In this document: positions 27,001 to 33,000 of the stretch, in pieces
Layout of the letters: the number at the start of each line of letters is the position of its first letter
Position numbering within the stretch: the first letter of the stretch is position 1
Source of the DNA: Candidatus Zixiibacteriota bacterium
GTDB lineage: Bacteria > Zixibacteria > MSB-5A5 > GN15 > JAAZOE01
NCBI GenBank assembly: GCA_043819555.1
Contig: JBDREQ010000039.1
Coordinates: forward strand, 37,828 to 101,827
DNA: 64,000 nucleotides
Direction: 5' to 3'
Program-made: the position numbers

Positions 27001-30000
27001 AAAAGTGTTTCAATCATACGAGAATCGGTATCCCGCTGAATGGTGTACGTGGCCGGATAAAAAATCAGGAGAAGTCCCGGAGAATATAAGAAATAGTAAA
27101 TATCCTGTGCTGTTGGAGGAGTGTTTTCCTCAATCGTGTAGATGATGACTATGGTCAGGAACAAGGCCAGCGACAGGAATAAAAAATATTTGAATTTGCC
27201 GGCAAAGACATGATTGGCGTTATATCTGAAAAGGGAAATAATAAGCCTTAGTGTATCCAAAATTCTGGTACCGGTCAGATGTCTTTCTCGAGCATTCGTC
27301 ATTAATTCTCCTTGCCTCCGAGAAGCCATAAATATGAATCTTCCAGCGTCGGCGTCACTTGAACAGCGTTGGGGGTCGGCATAGTTTCCGCCAAAACGCG
27401 AATCCTAATATTATCACCCTCACGTGTATGATGAACAATACGTGCAGCGTTTCGCATTTTTTCAAATTCCGCGTCAGTAACATGCGCCTGCCAGACAAAT
27501 CCCTCAGTAAGAGCGACCATATCCCGGGGAGTTCCAATAAATTTGACTTTGCCGTCTCCCAAAACCGCTAATTTGTTGCAGGAACTTGAAACATCTTCGA
27601 TTATATGGGTTGAGAATATTACAATCCGATCCCGTGACAATTCCGACAAGAGATTTCTAAACCGGATTCGCTCACGCGGATCGAGGCCGGCCGTAGGTTC
27701 ATCGACAACCAATATTCGGGGCAAATGCAACAGAGTTTGAGCAATCCCGACGCGTTGTTTCATGCCACCGGAAAAGGCCTGGATTTTGGTGTTTTTGCTA
27801 TCTCCCAAATGCACTGAGTTAATCGCTCGTTCGACTATTTCGCGGCGTTCCTCATTATCCAGTAATCCTTTTAGAATGGCCTGGTAATCAAGGAATTGAT
27901 AAGCCGTCATAGTTTCATAGGTACCAAATTCCTGGGGCAAATATCCTATCAAGGCCTGCAATTCTTCCCGTTTTTCGTCGATATCGATATCGTTTATAGT
28001 CACTTTCCCAAAGCTATTTGAGAGTATGCCGCATACAATTCGCATCAAAGTTGTTTTTCCGGCTCCGTTGGGTCCGACCAAACCAAACATGCCGCTGCCA
28101 ATTTCCATGGAAACCTGATTGAGGGCCAAAAATGGAGTTTTCTTCTTGCCGATAATTGGAATTAATTTGACAAAACGATAAAATATTTTTCTGGTTTTTT
28201 TAAAACGACCCGTTATCCGATTTATGTTAATTCTATCCCGATAGAGTCTTCGCGAAGTGTGATAAATTAAAATGCCCAAATACCACAATACACCGATAAT
28301 TATTGCAGTAGCATTTTCGTTCGTTTCGATAAAAAGCCAAAGAGTATTAATCAAAGGCCCAAACCAGAATATAACAATAAAACCCAATTTCCGCAGAAGT
28401 CTCATTCTAATTTTGGAATTATCATCCGGAATCAACAAAGGCCGCGTCAGATAAACTGCATAAGCATAAAAAACGATCGAAAAAATAGTTTCCCAAAAAC
28501 CGCTTTCGAGATATAAATAAGTAAAATAAAAAAGAAAAATTACGAATGGCATTTGCCAGATTAGACTAATAATGCCGGCCGGTTCGGGCAATTCGCCGCG
28601 AAACCGTTTTCTTTCCCGAAAGCGTTTACCACCCCGCCATTCCTGCATAAAACGCGAGTAATTGCCGTATAATTTGACGACATTCCTGATTGAGATTTTT
28701 ATCGGCACATCGCCGGGAATCAATTTTGCGCTGCTTCGACGGAGCGACGTTTTGATAAAATAGGTCATACCCGGGACAACAATAATGATGACGCAAAGAT
28801 CAATCGCCCGCCATAGGAAGGAATCTATATAAGTGTATATTGCCACAAATCCAGCTATCGCTGCCGCAACCTGAGCTACCTGCAAATACCATTTTAAACC
28901 GCGTAACCATCTGACCACGTTTTCGAGACCAAATGCGACCGTAGGGATAAAAATTAATGTAAACAGCGTGCCAGCGACAAGACCCCCGATAACGGTAATT
29001 GCAAATGGCGCGCCAATCTTGGCGACATATTCCGCCTTGCCCATCGCCAGCGGAAACATGGCCAGAATGGTCGTAATGGCGGTGATCAAAATTGGGCGAA
29101 CTCTGGCCTGACCAGCCATTAATAACGCCCGGCTGGGAGTATATTCACGGCGCCTTAACAGGCGATAATAATCCATTAAAATAATGCCGTTATTAACCAC
29201 TACTCCCAGCAGGATTAAAAACCCGGTTAAAACATTGGCGTCATACACTGAGTTATTGGTCAGGATCAAACCCCAAAAGGCACCGATTGTCGCCAGAGGC
29301 AAAGTAAACATCATAACCAGAGGAGTTAAAAGCGATTCGAAAATTGATGCCAGAATCATATAGATCAAAATTATGCCGGTAAATATAAGAAAATAAAAAT
29401 CGGACAGATCCGTCTCTTCGTGAACCGCTTCGACCGCGACGCCAGGAGGAAGATTTATGGCCGCGACTATCTGATCAATTTCCGCGCGGGCGCCGTCTAA
29501 TAACTGTTTTGAGTCTTCAATTTCTTCTTCAAAACGGTAAATGACTTCAACTATTTTTTCCTGGTTAGTGCGATTGATACTTGAATATCCATTATTATAA
29601 ACGATACCGGCAAGCTGAGTCAGGGGGATGTTCCCTCCCGAATTACTCGGTACAACCACTTGACGTAAATCATCCGAGGTTTTATCAATCTCCTCTTCAT
29701 CTGAGCTTTTGAGGATTATACTGACCTCTTCGGTTCCCTGCCGTAACGTCGCGCCGGAAGAAAATTCCCCTTGGAAACCGGCCAGTTCAGACATAATAGA
29801 AGTCGTTCTAACATCAAAATGGCTTAGAGCGGATTTATCAAACATTAGGTCAATACCAGGCTGGCCTTGAGATACTGACAAATTCGCTCGCTGAACGGTG
29901 GAAAGGTTTTCAATATTAAACAAAATATCGTCGGCAATGCTTGTCAATAGGGCCATATCCTGGCCCTTTACGACCACTCGCTCTTCGCTTGAGCCAATTC

Positions 30001-33000
30001 CCAGCAACCGCTCAAAGGCTCGTCCGGCTCCTCCCATACCGCCGGCTCCGCCGCCTCCGCGATAGCGAGCGTTAGATACGGGCTGCTCATATGAGAAATT
30101 AATGCGGCCATAAGCCCCTCCAAGCTTCTCCAATATATCAGCCTTGATCGCACTCAAATCACGATCACCAATATCTTTGTAATCTTCGACTAATTGAAAA
30201 GTAATGGTCGAAACCTCTTCTTCAATATTGGCTCGCCGCTCCTCCACTTCCGGAATCTCTGACAAGCGCGCATCCATATCCAGTATTTGTTCATCCGACG
30301 ATTCCAAAGTTGTTCCAGCCGGCATCGATGCATAGAGGGTAAATTCATCAAGTTCGACCTCGGAAGGAATATTAATGCTCAGGGCGAGACATATAATAAC
30401 GCTTAGAAAAAATACCGTCGTTCCGATTAAGATAGTCCGAGCTGGAAAACGCAAACATGATTTTAATAACAGAGTGTAGATTTGCATCTGCCGATTAGCC
30501 AGCGACATTCTTGTGAATATGGATTTTTGTGTTTCCCTTTTATTTTTCAGGATACGATAAGTAAATGACGGAATAAGCAAAAAGGCGACCGCCAGGGACA
30601 CTAAAAGAGTCGAAATAATCGACACCCCGACATGCTTCCCGATCGTACGAATCAGGAAATTATCAGAAAATATAAATGGCAGAAAAATGCAAACCGTAGT
30701 CAATGTCGCGGCAGTCACCGCACGCAAAACCTCCTTGGTTCCGATTAACACCGAATCAAATGCTGATTTACCATGAGCGGCATGACGATAGATATTTTCC
30801 ATGACAACGATGCTATTGTCAAGAAGCATTCCAAGGGCGATAGCCAGACCGACCAGAGTTAGAGTATTTATGGATATGTTGAAAGCATAGAAAAAATTCA
30901 TCGCGATCATTACCGAAATGGGAATGGCAAGTGCCACTACTAATACCAGGGGAACATTTCGAAGAAATATCCATAATACGACAATGGCCAGGATGCCGCC
31001 AACGAGGGCCAGCAATTTAATTATCTCGATGTTTTGTTCTATAGGTTCGGCCGCATCGATCTGAATCGCCAATATAATTCCGTCAGATTTCAGGCGGTCA
31101 TTTAATAGTTCGATAACATCGCGGGTTTCTCGTGAAAGACTAAGCAGATTGGTCTGCTGGTCACGAACGAGAGTGATGGAAATCGCTTCCATTCCATTAA
31201 TGCGCGAGATTGATTCTTCTTCCGCGCCGCCATCAATAATCGTACCCAGATGTTTTAGTAAAACAGGGCCCTGTTCTTTGATAATCAGGTTTTCGAGATT
31301 ATTAATCGAATTATAATCGGCATCAAGATTTACATAGAATTCTCGATTGCCTTCAACTACCTGCCCCAAATATTGACGCCCGGATGAGCCCTCCGAAATT
31401 TTTGATGAAATTTGAGAAGCGGTAAGATTATGAGAGCGCAACGCGTTTTCATCGAGGCGTATCTCGATTGAACGTTTTCTTCCGCCATAGACTTCTATAT
31501 TGGCAATGCCGTCAATCTGCTCAAATTCAGTGATAACTTTACTATCAACAATTTCCCGGATTTGATCAAGACTGCCTTCCCCCCGTGCCTGAAGGGTCAT
31601 GAACATATTAGCCAATTGCTCGGTATCGACTTTCCAAACCCGGGCAAAGAAACCGGCCGGCAGTGCGCCTGAAGCGGATTCAACTCTCTCCTGCAATTTC
31701 AGATAGGCGTATTTGTAATTGGTATCTTCGGTATAATAGACAATAATCGTCGCCCGTGAACGATCTATGTACGATTCAATTTTCTCAATATCCGCCAGTC
31801 CGGCAATGGCGTTTTCAAGAGGAATAACGGCTTGCTGCTCGAGATAATGCGGATCGGCATCTCGGGCGCCGCCAACCTGGACGATTAGCATGGGAAGTTC
31901 GGCAAAAGGAATAAGTTCAACCGGCAGGCGATTATATGAGATAACGCCTAAGAGGCAAAACCCGATTATTAACATTGCCGTGAAGACCGGCCGCTTTATA
32001 ATAAATGCGATCATGTTGCCTTGTGCTCGGACTTCAGGTCTATGGTCGAAACTTTTCCGGCCAGCATATAATAGACCGCAGGTATTACGATCAGGGTCAA
32101 AGCGGTCGAAGTGAACAGTCCGCCAATAACGGCGATGGCCATCGGCGCCCGGAGCGATGCCCCTTCGCCAATACCGATCGTCAATGGCAATAGAGCAAGA
32201 ATTGTAGTAATACTGGTCATTATAATCGGCCGAATTCGAGTCTGCCCGGCGTTTGTAATGGCGGGAATGAGTTCCAATCCGCTGCGGCGGTTTTGATTGA
32301 TGCGATCTATTAAAATGATTGAGTCGTTGACGGCGATTCCGGCCAGCATGATTATCCCGATAAATGACATGACATTAAACGGCATATTAAGAATAAATAG
32401 AATGAATACCGCCCCGACTCCGGCCAGAGGAATCGTCAACAGTATAACAAAGGGATGAAGAAGCGATTCGAATTGAGATGCCATCACCATATAAACCAAA
32501 ATAATCGCAAGAAGAAGCGCAAATTTCAAATTTCCAAAAGCTTCCTGGCGCAATTGCTCTTCACCGGTCACAGCAATCGAATATTCCGGCGGGAGCGCAA
32601 TCGTGTTGAGCGATTCTTTTACTTTGACCGCGATTCTATCGAATGATATATCATTGGTGATATGCGCCGTTATACGGGCGATTCTGATTTGATTATTCCT
32701 GATAATTTCACGCGGGGAATAAGTCTGCTCAATATAGGCAATTTCATCAACGCGAACCCGGCGTCCTGAAGAAGTCTCCAAAAGCAAACCCTCAAGTTCT
32801 GAAAGGGTAATATCCGCGCGCAAAAGCTTAATATCCGTATATTCGCCCTGGTGATTTATCTGTCCGGCATCCCGCCCGCTGAGAGCGTCCTTCAGTTGCG
32901 AACCAATCGACTGGGGAGTAAGTCCAAATTCTGATGCCATTGTTCTATTTATCCGAAGATTTATCTCAGGGCGGCCTTCCTGAAAACTGGTTTCAACATT

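What a model noticed while it worked through the whole genome (the two positions that open the first line are those of the whole stretch)
27302..32014. RND efflux permease fused to extra membrane helices and an intact ABC ATPase
Gene g01536 (1570 aa) is a full 12-helix AcrB-type RND permease (residues 1-1025) that continues, in one reading frame, into about 270 hydrophobic residues and a complete ABC nucleotide-binding domain (Walker A GPNGAGKT, signature FSGGMKQR, Walker B ILVVDEP, H-loop STH). It lies in a tripartite efflux operon next to a second, ordinary-length RND permease (g01537), a membrane-fusion protein (g01538) and an outer-membrane factor (g01539). The two classical proton-relay residues of AcrB (D408 in TM4, K940 in TM10) are both Asn. 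This points to an RND pump that is driven or gated by ATP, a coupling mode not described for the RND superfamily; a B2C-type heterotrimer like MdtB2C would bring two ATP [...]
Evidence so far: pfam.tsv: ACR_tran 1-1025 (hmm 1-1015 of 1021, 522 bits), ABC_tran 1298-1442 (97 bits), no stop or frameshift between. find_homologous_proteins on residues 1030-1570: of the best 120 hits 113 are 1500-1650 aa with the same PF00873+PF00005 pair (Zixibacteria, KSB1, Gemmatimonadota, a cultured Bacteroidota Gaoshiqia), so the fusion is conserved, not an assembly artefact. phmmer against PDB aligns TM4 GMLLDNSIVVMEN with GLLVDDAIVVVEN and TM10 GVVVNNGIILMD with GLSAKNAILIVE of AcrB/MexB-type pumps. MAFFT of the 113 full-length relatives: TM4 D-N in 105, D-C in 5, D-S in 2, D-A in 1, D-D in none; TM10 Asn for Lys in 112 of 113 (one gap); the canonical RND g00465 of this genome keeps DD and K. 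Alp [...]
(Added by a program. Inside this text positions count along the whole contig: contig position 37,828 is position 1 of the stretch shown here. "Call 12" and the like, gene names such as g00115 and contig names such as C1 are that model's own, and its searches are not shown. The text may have been shortened before it was handed on; [...] marks where a part breaks off. The agent that wrote the report below was given it as the finding of a first reader that could run no searches.)

Follow-up and report, generated by a model that had tools for sequence, protein, structure and literature searches.

The report
RND efflux pump fused to ABC ATPase
One conserved 1570-residue protein joins a proton-type RND efflux pump to an ATP-burning ABC engine, and the engine most likely drives its own small membrane partner encoded next door, so that two kinds of pump usually treated as alternatives are tied into one export machine.

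Summary
ORF 27302-32014 (minus strand) reads without a stop from a full RND permease into six more membrane helices and an intact ABC ATPase.

The reading "ATP-driven RND" is only partly supported:
- The "hydrophobic linker" is two tether helices, then the ATPase's own first strand with its invariant adenine-stacking Tyr, then a four-helix membrane insertion inside the ATPase domain.
- A predicted complex puts the small protein's most conserved motif in the ATPase's coupling groove.
- The Asn/Asn relay also occurs in the unfused partner RND and in plain RND operons of relatives with no ABC genes nearby.

Best reading: a type V (ABC-2) ABC exporter tethered to an RND tripartite pump. I found no published description. 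This scan has met the family before in other genomes.

The parts
27302..32014 (-). Whole fusion gene (1570 aa plus stop): RND permease, two tether helices, split ABC ATPase
28940..32014 (-). RND permease domain, residues 1-1025 (12 TM, two periplasmic loops). TM4 is D399-N400, TM10 is N941-N942, TM11 has R971, R973 and T978
   Evidence: Pfam ACR_tran 524.5 bits; alignment to MdtB/CmeB; conservation counts
28703..28939 (-). Tether, residues 1026-1104: amphipathic helix, TM13, TM14 and a basic cytoplasmic stretch
   Evidence: Hydropathy and the sequence itself. AF2 helices at model residues 2-13, 17-37 and 41-67. K/R-rich loops lie on the cytoplasmic side, read directly from the sequence.
28664..28702 (-). 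First strand and A-loop of the ABC domain, residues 1105-1117 (IKISIRNVVKLYG). Y1116 is invariant.
   Evidence: By eye it matches the N-terminus of the free ATPase (EIRINNLTKQYPG). Y1116 is kept in 113/113. AF2 gives a strand at model residues 82-91. The short-linker relative L003 has the same strand with no membrane helices after it.
28145..28663 (-). Insertion inside the ABC domain, residues 1118-1290: basic helix, TM15-TM18, basic helix
   Evidence: The 272-residue linker finds only this family among 1.84 billion representative proteins.
27305..28144 (-). Rest of the ABC ATPase, residues 1291-1570: second strand, Walker A, Q-loop, signature, Walker B, H-loop and a C-terminal domain
   Evidence: Pfam ABC_tran 97.7 bits. 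42% identity over 269 residues to the free ATPase. Foldseek best matches are TM_1403 (4yer), ABCA, NosF and LptB.
26559..27329 (-). small256: six-helix type V (ABC-2) membrane domain, predicted client of the fused ATPase. The likely start is Met10, whose ATG overlaps the fusion's stop codon by 1 nt.
   Evidence: Present directly downstream in 46 of 47 loci. AF2 pLDDT 83.2. VIA-align Z 15.2, rmsd 4.0 A over 220 residues to NosY, and all 50 rows shown are type V ABC membrane domains. Complex score 0.68 against 0.00 for the best control. The Atlas record starts at residue 10.
32011..35112 (-). RND2: unfused paralogous RND permease (1033 aa). Its stop overlaps the fusion's start by 4 nt.
   Evidence: Directly upstream of the fusion in 27 of 28 loci with enough sequence.
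35131..36189 (-). Periplasmic adaptor (membrane-fusion protein), 352 aa
   Evidence: TIGR01730 173.4 bits against a cut-off of 94.9; 23 of 23 loci
36200..37702 (-). Outer-membrane factor, 500 aa
   Evidence: Pfam OEP 156.3 bits; 20 of 20 loci
37741..41115 (-). big1124: ABC-2-type membrane domain (about 7 TM) plus a roughly 840-aa periplasmic domain. The domain is M1-peptidase-like without HExxH and ends in Golvesin_C.
   Evidence: 20 of 20 loci and 11 of 11 loci that reach the gene's start.
41131..42042 (-). NBD303: free ABC ATPase, the closest paralogue of the fused ATPase in this genome
   Evidence: 42% identity, E 1e-83. 243.8 bits against 131.5 for the next ATPase in the genome. Present in 11 of 11 loci that reach far enough upstream.

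Best explanation
The gene encodes a natural covalent hybrid. One subunit of an RND tripartite efflux pump carries at its C-terminus one of the two ATPase subunits of a type V (ABC-2) ABC transporter.

Shown here:
- The fusion is real and conserved, and its ATPase motifs are intact.
- The ATPase domain is split after its first strand by four membrane helices.
- The gene sits in a fixed seven-gene operon: free paralogous ATPase, ABC-2 membrane protein with a large periplasmic domain, outer-membrane factor, adaptor, second RND, fusion, small ABC-2 membrane protein.

Predicted: the small downstream protein docks its conserved coupling motif in the fused ATPase's Q-loop groove.

Inferred:
- The fused and the free ATPase pair with each other, and the small and the large membrane proteins pair with each other. 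Together they form one heteromeric ABC transporter held against the RND pump by TM13-18.
- ATP moves the substrate out of the cytoplasm or the inner membrane.
- The RND part, still ion-coupled through Asp399, Arg971 and Thr978, passes the substrate through the adaptor and the outer-membrane channel.

The substrate is unknown.
For: Fusion is real and conserved:
- No stop in 1570 codons.
- 113 full-length relatives, some on contigs of 3.4-5.7 Mb.
- 12 of 151 genomes of the own phylum carry the linker (10 of 88 genera), one match each. Eleven lie in open frames of 1572-1690 aa; the twelfth (G150) lies in a 475-aa frame.
- A second, short-linker class of about 1410-1470 aa exists.

ATPase is active and of ABC-2 type:
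- Catalytic residues are 113/113.
- The best NCBIfam matches are GldA and DrrA.
- In a tree, fused ATPases form one clade (12 rows, SH-aLRT 99) and the free in-operon ATPases another (SH-aLRT 100, 5 rows, one of them from a short contig not labelled as in-operon). Both sit in one subfamily (99) with stand-alone systems.

Domain is split:
- The strand IKISIRNVVKLYG with invariant Y1116 lies about 175 residues before the second strand.
- AF2 models it as a strand.
- The short-linker relative L003 keeps the strand without the membrane helices.

The ATPase has a client:
- A small256 homologue lies directly downstream in 46 of 47 loci.
- Its model has the type V ABC membrane fold: Z 15.2, rmsd 4.0 A, 220 residues aligned to NosY. 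All 50 rows shown are type V ABC membrane domains.
- Complex prediction: score 0.68, best of 3 controls 0.00. The mark was reached by 116 of 157 solved complexes and 2 of 215 mismatched pairs. Runs agree in at least 87% of contacts, and the partner's pLDDT is at least 77.
- The interface is ATPase residues 1325-1387 and 1426 (Q-loop and helical subdomain) against small256 residues 25-43 and 103-119. The latter stretch holds the invariant E107, F110-P113 and Y115-K118.

Operon is fixed:
- RND2 in 27/28 loci, adaptor 23/23, outer-membrane factor 20/20, large protein 20/20.
- The full seven-gene order is found in 8 of 8 own-phylum loci and 3 of 3 Bacteroidota loci that reach far enough.

One free plus one fused ATPase is the rule:
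- In the short-linker class, 23 of 41 genomes searched have the fusion. In 17 of them a free paralogue lies about 11 kb away on the same contig and strand. In the other 6 it lies on another contig.

Ancestry fits a two-ATPase, two-membrane-domain unit:
- The stand-alone relatives examined pair one ATPase gene with one 1120-1500-aa protein. In all 9 of these large proteins that matched the profile, two tandem membrane-domain matches were found.

RND is probably still ion-coupled:
- D399 and R971 are 113/113 and T978 is 112/113.
- The same DN/NN pattern occurs in plain RND operons without ABC genes.
Against: - No experiment exists on any member.
- The complex pass may partly reflect likeness to solved type V ABC transporters. 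My own alignments were used, so the calibration counts hold only roughly.
- Only one membrane partner was tested. The pairing of the free with the fused ATPase, and of small256 with big1124, was not tested.
- Homology of small256 to the membrane domain of big1124 could not be shown (hhalign probability 6%, E 0.006).
- A homodimer of two fused ATPases within an RND trimer holding two fusion subunits fits the data equally well.
- Both RND paralogues of the operon have lost D408 and K940, so a weakened proton relay is not excluded.
- A covalent link kept across phyla suggests coupling tighter than co-location.
- The role of TM15-18 is unexplained.
Confidence: 0.55

Rival explanations
1. ATP-driven or ATP-gated RND. 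The RND has lost proton coupling, and the fused ATPase, through TM13-18, drives or licenses the RND conformational cycle.
For: - D408 and K940 are replaced in 113 of 113 long-class fusions and in 38 of 38 short-class fusions.
- The partner RND2 is mostly DN/NN as well.
- The covalent link is conserved across phyla.
- The ATPase's first strand is pinned to the membrane by TM14 and TM15, and its second strand by TM18. This could transmit movement.
Against: - The coupling groove is predicted to be filled by small256, which is present in 46 of 47 loci.
- DN/NN RNDs exist in plain adaptor-RND operons with no match to the operon's ABC parts in the 6.5-8.5 kb held on either side, apart from one stretch cut 2.3 kb from its contig's end.
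- D399, R971 and T978 remain invariant or nearly so.
- The short-linker class has no membrane helices in the insert that follows the ATPase's first strand.
Confidence: 0.13
2. The ABC module is a mechanotransducer or extractor rather than a transporter across the membrane. ATP moves the large periplasmic domain of big1124, which loads substrates from the outer leaflet or the periplasm into the RND, or controls pump assembly. This would resemble MacB, LolCDE, NosDFY or LptB2FG.
For: - big1124 carries a periplasmic domain of about 840 aa whose M1 zinc motif is lost: 0 of 4 operon-type proteins keep it, against 6 of 8 stand-alone relatives.
- The nearest folds of small256 include NosY and CcmB, which serve periplasmic partners.
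Against: - No test of contact between big1124 and the RND or the adaptor was made.
- The fold of the periplasmic domain was not modelled.
- Type V exporters also include true exporters such as PmtCD, ABCG and Wzm.
Confidence: 0.2
3. Two functionally independent transporters. The fusion only secures co-expression, co-location or stability, with no coupling between ATP hydrolysis and RND transport.
For: - Each half has all the parts it needs.
- Stand-alone versions of the ABC system exist without any RND.
Against: - The seven-gene order and the fusion are kept between Zixibacteria and Bacteroidota at 48% identity, and also in a second class with a different gene order.
- Invariant residues lie in the tether and the insertion: W1036, P1081, W1217, P1220.
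Confidence: 0.08

Closest known systems
MdtABC-TolC / MuxABC-OpmB (RND pumps with two RND paralogues; MdtB2C heterotrimer)
   Same: - Tandem paralogous RND genes lie next to an adaptor gene.
- The best solved relative of both RNDs here is MdtB.
- In MdtB2C the two subunits have unequal roles in proton relay and substrate binding (passages read in PMC4338810).
   Different: - No ATPase or ABC-2 gene is described in the mdt operon in the passages I read.
- Here one paralogue carries an ATPase, and both lack D408 and K940.
- Heterotrimer formation was not tested here.
MmpL7 (RND superfamily) with DrrABC (ABC-2 exporter) in mycobacterial PDIM export
   Same: - An RND-superfamily transporter and a hetero-oligomeric ABC-2 transporter (one ATPase, two different membrane proteins) act on export of the same molecule. 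I saw only the start of the abstract of PMC11539658 in a search listing.
- The ATPase here scores 155.7 bits on the DrrA model.
   Different: - Those are separate proteins, with no outer-membrane factor or adaptor of the tripartite kind.
- Here the two systems are covalently joined.
- The DrrA score is below the model's cut-off of 312.45.
Stand-alone ABC ATPase plus tandem ABC-2 membrane domains with an M1 peptidase domain (loci L004, L011, L012, L014-L016; uncharacterised)
   Same: - They are the closest free relatives of the fused ATPase, at 41-45% identity.
- The membrane domain is homologous to that of big1124.
   Different: - They have no RND, adaptor or outer-membrane factor.
- Both membrane domains are in one chain.
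- The HExxH zinc motif is kept in 6 of 8, while it is absent from all 4 operon-type proteins checked.
Tripartite ABC pumps (MacAB-TolC) and the ABC-2 exporter YbhFSR
   Same: ATP-driven exporters that work with, or are encoded next to, adaptors of the same family. For MacAB I read passages in PMC8277102. For YbhFSR I saw abstracts in a search listing only. That an adaptor, YbhG, is encoded beside ybhFSR is recalled and comes from no call.
   Different: - MacB has a different fold. The folds nearest to small256 are type V, and MacB is not among the 50 rows shown.
- None contains an RND subunit.
CFTR NBD1 regulatory insertion between the first two strands
   Same: An insertion at the same place in an ABC domain. 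This is recalled, and was also named in earlier notes of this scan. It was not tested here.
   Different: That insertion is about 30 disordered soluble residues. Here it is about 175 residues with four membrane helices.
SecDF with SecYEG/SecA
   Same: An RND-superfamily, proton-driven device works beside an ATP-driven one on the same cargo (passage read in PMC8277102).
   Different: Separate proteins, protein translocation rather than efflux, and no outer-membrane duct.

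Membership tests
RND superfamily, HAE-1-like permease (Pfam ACR_tran) | Full-length match to the family profile: 12 TM with two large periplasmic loops | tested here: met
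   PF00873 covers residues 1-1025, profile positions 1-1015 of 1021, 524.5 bits against a cut-off of 28
RND superfamily, HAE-1-like permease | Canonical AcrB proton relay D407, D408, K940, R971, T978 | tested here: not met
   D399, R971 and T978 are present. The D408 position is Asn and the K940 position is Asn. The same pattern occurs in unfused RNDs.
RND superfamily, HAE-1-like permease | NCBIfam RND_permease_2 curated cut-off | tested here: not met
   445.2 bits against a cut-off of 1250. RND2 also falls below it, at 618.3 bits.
Tripartite RND efflux system | Adaptor and outer-membrane factor genes in the same operon | tested here: met
   TIGR01730 173.4 bits (cut-off 94.9) and Pfam OEP 156.3 bits. 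Conserved in 23/23 and 20/20 loci.
Heterotrimeric RND (MdtB2C type) | Two RND paralogues that assemble in one trimer | not testable with these tools
   Tandem genes with a 4-nt overlap, and RND2 upstream in 27 of 28 loci. Assembly itself was not tested.
ABC ATPase (Pfam ABC_tran) | Walker A, Q-loop, signature, Walker B with catalytic Glu, H-loop, aromatic A-loop | tested here: met
   All present, and each is kept in 113 of 113 relatives
ABC ATPase | One contiguous soluble domain | tested here: not met
   The first strand (1105-1117) is separated from the second strand (from about 1293) by about 175 residues with four membrane helices
ABC-2 / type V exporter ATPases (DrrA, GldA models) | Score above the curated cut-off of the named models | tested here: not met
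   GldA 166.1 bits against 402.6; DrrA 155.7 against 312.45. These are the best ATPase matches, but the protein is not a member of either named family.
ABC-2 / type V exporter membrane domain (small256) | Six-helix type V fold with an N-terminal interface helix and a coupling helix | tested here: met
   - AF2 pLDDT 83.2, pTM 0.78.
- VIA-align Z 15.2, rmsd 4.0 A, 220 residues aligned to NosY 7znq_Y. All 50 rows shown are type V ABC membrane domains.
- Foldseek best match is PmtCD, E 1.1e-3, TM 0.54.
- Atlas structural neighbours are ABC-2 clusters, TM 0.61-0.72.
- Z of 13-15 is only just above what helical bundles can reach by chance, according to the tool's own note.
ABC-2 membrane domain (small256), by sequence | Pfam ABC2_membrane families above the gathering score | tested here: not met
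   18.6 bits against 27.2. Only 3 and 2 of 39 family members match ABC2_membrane_2 and ABC2_membrane_3 at E <= 0.01.
M1 zinc aminopeptidase (big1124 periplasmic domain) | HExxH plus a downstream Glu as zinc site | tested here: not met
   No HE..H anywhere in big1124. Pfam Peptidase_M1 scores 16.5 bits against 27.7. Stand-alone relatives keep the motif in 6 of 8.

The most novel reading that the evidence does not exclude
A dual-energy efflux pump. ATP hydrolysis in the tethered ABC module is mechanically coupled, through the membrane helices that pin the ATPase's first two strands (TM14, TM15, TM18), to the transport cycle of an RND pump with a reduced proton relay. This would be the first RND machine that needs or is gated by ATP.
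Probability: 0.15. Interest if true: 0.9.

Novelty: new variant of a known kind. Interest (0 to 1): 0.7.

Why it matters
RND (ion-driven) and ABC (ATP-driven) transporters are taught as alternative inner-membrane engines of tripartite efflux pumps. Here a conserved family joins them in one polypeptide and one seven-gene operon. Source names in the searches place it in Zixibacteria, KSB1, Gemmatimonadota, Bacteroidota, Acidobacteriota, Calditrichaeota, Latescibacteria, Chlorobi, Krumholzibacteria and Omnitrophota.

If the parts work together, this gives a natural system for two questions:
- How transport across the inner membrane is handed over to transport across the outer membrane.
- How a dimeric ATPase is fitted to a trimeric pump.

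The four-helix membrane insertion inside an ABC domain is itself an unusual piece of protein architecture. Databases label these proteins only as "efflux RND transporter permease subunit" or "ATP-binding cassette domain-containing protein".

Tried and rejected
- **Literature.** Five searches found nothing on an RND-ABC fusion: RND/ABC/fused/nucleotide-binding domain/AcrB; "RND-ABC"; ACR_tran + ABC_tran; ABC-2 + M1 aminopeptidase + permease; six phrasings such as "ATP-driven RND". In the held first 300,000 characters of the review PMC8277102, the six passages holding "fused" or "cooperat-" mention no such fusion; YbhG and ABC-2 do not occur there. Subscription papers are not searched.
- **Genome-contig scan with the full-length alignment.** The tool chose ATPase patterns, so only 5 of 80 loci were fusions. 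I repeated the scan with a linker-only alignment in metagenome contigs.
- **Homology of small256 to the big1124 membrane domain.** hhalign gave probability 6%, E 0.006, so homology is not shown. A small256 profile found no match in the stand-alone large proteins.
- **PDB by sequence.** big1124 gave 0 hits at E <= 1. The small256 profile gave 1 spurious hit, E 0.26.
- **Foldseek on the C-terminal module.** The 50 rows shown are ATPase subunits or whole ABC transporters that contain one. Nothing was learned about TM13-18.
- **Atlas on the big1124 periplasmic part.** Only clusters with Golvesin_C came up, with no functional lead.
- **Promoter and terminator scan.** 54 promoter-like sites against 38.4 +/- 5.7 in shuffles, and 18 terminator-like sites against 17.9. 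This does not help to set operon ends.
- **Sequencing runs.** None was listed, and no RNA holder was listed.
- **A stand-alone linker-ATPase form.** In the representative search, hits shorter than the 1550-1590-aa fusions look like pieces of them (P0139 has no start Met). P0153 (526 aa) starts with Met inside TM13 and stays unclear. I did not run the "shorter" length search of the search for homologous proteins.
- **Two-component system upstream as a conserved regulator.** It was found only in 3 close relatives, so I rejected it as part of the module.
- **** failed on an out-of-frame coordinate, corrected.

Full report
**1. Observation**

The window holds one ORF at 27302..32014 on the minus strand, 1570 aa, with no internal stop.
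- Pfam gives ACR_tran over residues 1-1025 (524.5 bits) and ABC_tran over 1298-1442 (97.7 bits).
- Aligned to MdtB, TM4 reads D399-N400 where MdtB has D-D. TM10 reads N941-N942 where MdtB has K-N.
Of these, 113 (the query included) are 1500-1650 aa.

**2. Anatomy of the "linker"**

The 272 residues between the RND domain and the Pfam ABC match are not a plain hydrophobic spacer.
- After TM12 come an amphipathic helix and two membrane helices (about 1046-1090).
- Then comes a basic stretch and the sequence IKISIRNVVKLYG (1105-1117).
- By eye this matches the N-terminus of the free ATPase of the same operon (EIRINNLTKQYPG) and has the form of the first strand and aromatic A-loop of an ABC domain.
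- Y1116 is kept in 113 of 113 relatives.
- About 175 residues follow, with a basic helix and four membrane helices (about 1145-1253).
- Only then come the second strand (PFLALNQVSMEI) and Walker A.
- All loops that this layout places in the cytoplasm are rich in Lys and Arg, and the short opposite loops are acidic. This is read directly from the sequence.
- AF2 on the C-terminal 545 residues (46-row alignment, mean pLDDT 77.5, pTM 0.56) models residues 1107-1116 as a strand and six long helices in the expected places.
- A distant fusion, L003 (1437 aa, 27% identity), has the same first strand (LQIEIDHLTRIYQ) followed by a short insert without membrane helices.

So the ATPase domain starts near residue 1105 and is split by a four-helix membrane insertion. 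The protein has 18 membrane helices.

The linker alone, searched against 1.84 billion representative proteins, finds 93 clusters (57 at E <= 1e-10). The 17 hits over 1500 aa are 1550-1590 aa with the linker at about 1015-1300. The shorter ones look like pieces of the fusion, and one 526-aa protein stays unclear.

**3. The operon**

On the minus strand, with gaps of -28 to +38 nt, lie seven genes:

| Gene | Coordinates | What it is |
|---|---|---|
| NBD303 | 41131..42042 | free ABC ATPase |
| big1124 | 37741..41115 | ABC-2-like membrane domain plus about 840 periplasmic residues |
| OMF | 36200..37702 | outer-membrane factor |
| MFP | 35131..36189 | periplasmic adaptor |
| RND2 | 32011..35112 | second, unfused RND permease |
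| fusion | 27302..32014 | RND permease joined to the ATPase |
| small256 | 26559..27329 | small ABC-2 membrane protein |

I compared 49 related loci holding the linker: 4 from genomes and 45 metagenome contigs found with linker-derived patterns.
- A small256 homologue lies directly after the fusion in 46 of the 47 loci that hold the fusion's 3' end. The exception, L119, is a frameshifted contig.
- Upstream, RND2 is present in 27 of 28 loci with enough sequence. The exception is L123, where the linker is broken and preceded by unrelated genes.
- The adaptor is present in 23 of 23, the outer-membrane factor in 20 of 20 and the large protein in 20 of 20.
- The whole seven-gene order, free ATPase included, is present in 8 of 8 own-phylum loci fetched with enough flank and in 3 of 3 Bacteroidota loci that reach that far.

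In the own phylum the linker is found in 12 of 151 genomes (10 of 88 genera), one match each. The module is patchy and accessory.

**4. What the ATPase belongs to**

- The fused ATPase and NBD303 are 42% identical over 269 residues, C-terminal domain included.
- NBD303 is by far its closest paralogue in the genome: 243.8 bits against 131.5 for the next.
- The closest free ATPases elsewhere (41-45% identity) come from systems in which, in the loci examined, the ATPase gene is followed by a gene for a 1120-1500-aa protein.
- In all 9 such proteins that matched the profile, that protein has two tandem ABC-2-like membrane-domain matches to the big1124 profile.
- Two scanned with Pfam (L011, L016) have an M1 peptidase domain. 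The HExxH motif is intact in 6 of 8.
- The operon-type large proteins have a single membrane domain and no HExxH (0 of 4).
- In a tree of 41 ATPase domains, the 12 long-class fused ATPases form one clade (SH-aLRT 99). The free in-operon ATPases form another of 5 rows (100), one of which (L007) comes from a short contig not labelled as in-operon.
- Both belong with the stand-alone systems to one subfamily (99). The deeper order is unresolved.

**5. The client of the ATPase**

small256 misses Pfam's thresholds and has no solved relative by sequence. Its AF2 model (pLDDT 83.2, pTM 0.78) nevertheless aligns to NosY with Z 15.2 (rmsd 4.0 A, 220 residues). All 50 rows shown are type V ABC membrane domains: NosY, ABCG, PmtD, ABCA, ABCH, Pdr5. 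The Foldseek best match is PmtCD at E 1.1e-3.

I ran complex prediction on the C-terminal module with small256, each chain with its own alignment:
- Score 0.68, best of 3 controls 0.00.
- The mark was reached by 116 of 157 solved complexes and 2 of 215 mismatched pairs.
- The runs agree in at least 87% of contacts, and the partner's pLDDT is at least 77.
- The interface joins ATPase residues 1325-1387 and 1426 (Q-loop and helical subdomain, the groove that receives a coupling helix) to small256 residues 25-43 and 103-119.
- Residues 103-119 hold the invariant motif E107, F110-G-I-P113, Y115-R-Y-K118.

The model supports binding but does not show it. The pass may owe something to likeness with solved type V transporters.

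**6. The relay residues**

Both RND paralogues of the operon share the change.
- RND2 has DN in TM4 in 27 of 29 rows (the window's own RND2 plus 28 orthologues) and NN in TM10 in 22 of 29, with ND in 4, the window's copy among them.
- The short-linker class lacks the second Asp and the Lys in 38 of 38.

The pattern is not confined to ATPase-bearing systems.
- In five genomes of the same family that lack the fusion, 3 of 19 full-length RNDs are DN/NN.
- These three sit in plain adaptor-RND operons. In the 6.5-8.5 kb held on either side (one stretch starts 2.3 kb from its contig's end) there is no match to either ATPase, small256 or big1124.
- In the own genome 5 of 6 RNDs lack the Lys.
- Meanwhile D399 and R971 are invariant and T978 is kept in 112 of 113.

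The altered relay therefore does not argue for ATP drive. A buried Asp-Arg pair kept under selection fits continued ion coupling. That last step is inference.

**7. Stoichiometry**

(a) The fused ATPase pairs with the free NBD303, and small256 pairs with the membrane domain of big1124. This would rebuild the two-ATPase, two-membrane-domain, one-periplasmic-domain unit of the stand-alone relatives. In favour:
- One free and one fused ATPase are encoded together in both classes. In the short class, 23 of 41 genomes searched have the fusion. In 17 of them a free paralogue lies about 11 kb away on the same contig and strand, and in the other 6 on another contig.
- In L003 the gene adjacency is swapped. 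The free ATPase lies next to a small256-family protein, and the large membrane protein lies next to the fusion.

(b) Two fusion subunits and one RND2 form the trimer, and the two fused ATPases dimerise.

Neither was tested.

**8. Mechanism proposed**

Shown: the fusion, the split domain, the intact motifs and the fixed operon.

Predicted: docking of small256 on the fused ATPase.

Inferred: a heteromeric type V ABC transporter is held against an RND pump. It uses ATP to bring a substrate out of the cytoplasm or the inner membrane, or to work its periplasmic domain. The ion-coupled RND, adaptor and outer-membrane factor then expel the substrate.

Known cases of cooperation between such systems as separate proteins:
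- Single-component pumps feeding tripartite pumps (abstract of PMC4338810).
- MmpL7 with DrrABC (start of the abstract of PMC11539658 in a search listing).
- SecDF with SecYEG/SecA (passage in PMC8277102).

**9. Novelty**

- I found no paper on an RND-ABC fusion.
- Source names are generic.
- Earlier notes of this scan describe the same family in at least 13 other genomes, with the same seven-gene operon and the same split ATPase. I had reached those two points before reading them.

**10. Limits**

- There are no expression data (none was listed).
- The RND domain and the ABC module were never modelled together, because of size limits.
- The periplasmic domain of big1124 was not modelled.
- The substrate is unknown.

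Noticed in passing
window 42342-44759 (minus strand): An OmpR-type response regulator (232 aa) and a histidine kinase (571 aa) lie directly upstream of the operon. The regulator is found next to the operon only in three close relatives (L132, L137, L139), so it is not part of the conserved module.
   Followed up: partly
window 44897-50841 (plus strand): A second, separate ABC-2 system: a PDZ protein, a 500-aa protein with an NPCBM_assoc domain, an ABC ATPase (47184-47945) and an ABC-2 permease with DUF3526 (47960-49375).
   Followed up: no
L004, L011, L012, L014, L015, L016 (genome contigs of Pseudomonadota, Acidobacteriota, Bacteroidota): An uncharacterised stand-alone family: an ABC ATPase followed by a 1190-1320-aa protein with two tandem ABC-2 membrane domains and an HExxH-type zinc-site motif. 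A Pfam M1 peptidase match was confirmed in the two scanned, L011 and L016.
   Followed up: partly
window 37741-41115: The large protein of the operon keeps an M1-peptidase-like region but has no HExxH anywhere. The same holds for L005, L008 and the L003 922-aa protein. It ends in a Golvesin_C domain.
   Followed up: partly
L003 (24290 nt) and the genomes: A second class of RND-ATPase fusions (about 1410-1470 aa) has no membrane helices in the insert after the ATPase's first strand. Its operon has a different gene order: adaptor, free ATPase, small ABC-2 protein, RND, 922-aa membrane protein, fusion, outer-membrane factor. It was found in 23 of 41 relatives of that genome.
   Followed up: partly
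L119 and L123 (metagenome contigs): L119 carries the RND2-fusion region broken by several frameshifts and has no small256 match. In L123 a frame-broken linker follows unrelated genes at about 6740, with no RND upstream. These are either decayed copies or assembly faults.
   Followed up: partly
L110, L115, L118 at about 16700-20800: A second adaptor-RND pair (23-29% identity to the operon's own) lies about 4.5 kb downstream of small256 in three metagenome loci.
   Followed up: no
protein P0261 (1579 aa): One long-class fusion is listed with an extra heavy-metal-associated domain (PF00403) among its precomputed Pfam families. This could hint at a metal-related substrate in that member.
   Followed up: no
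G171: One genome holds two short-class fusion genes on different contigs (C64 and C97).
   Followed up: no
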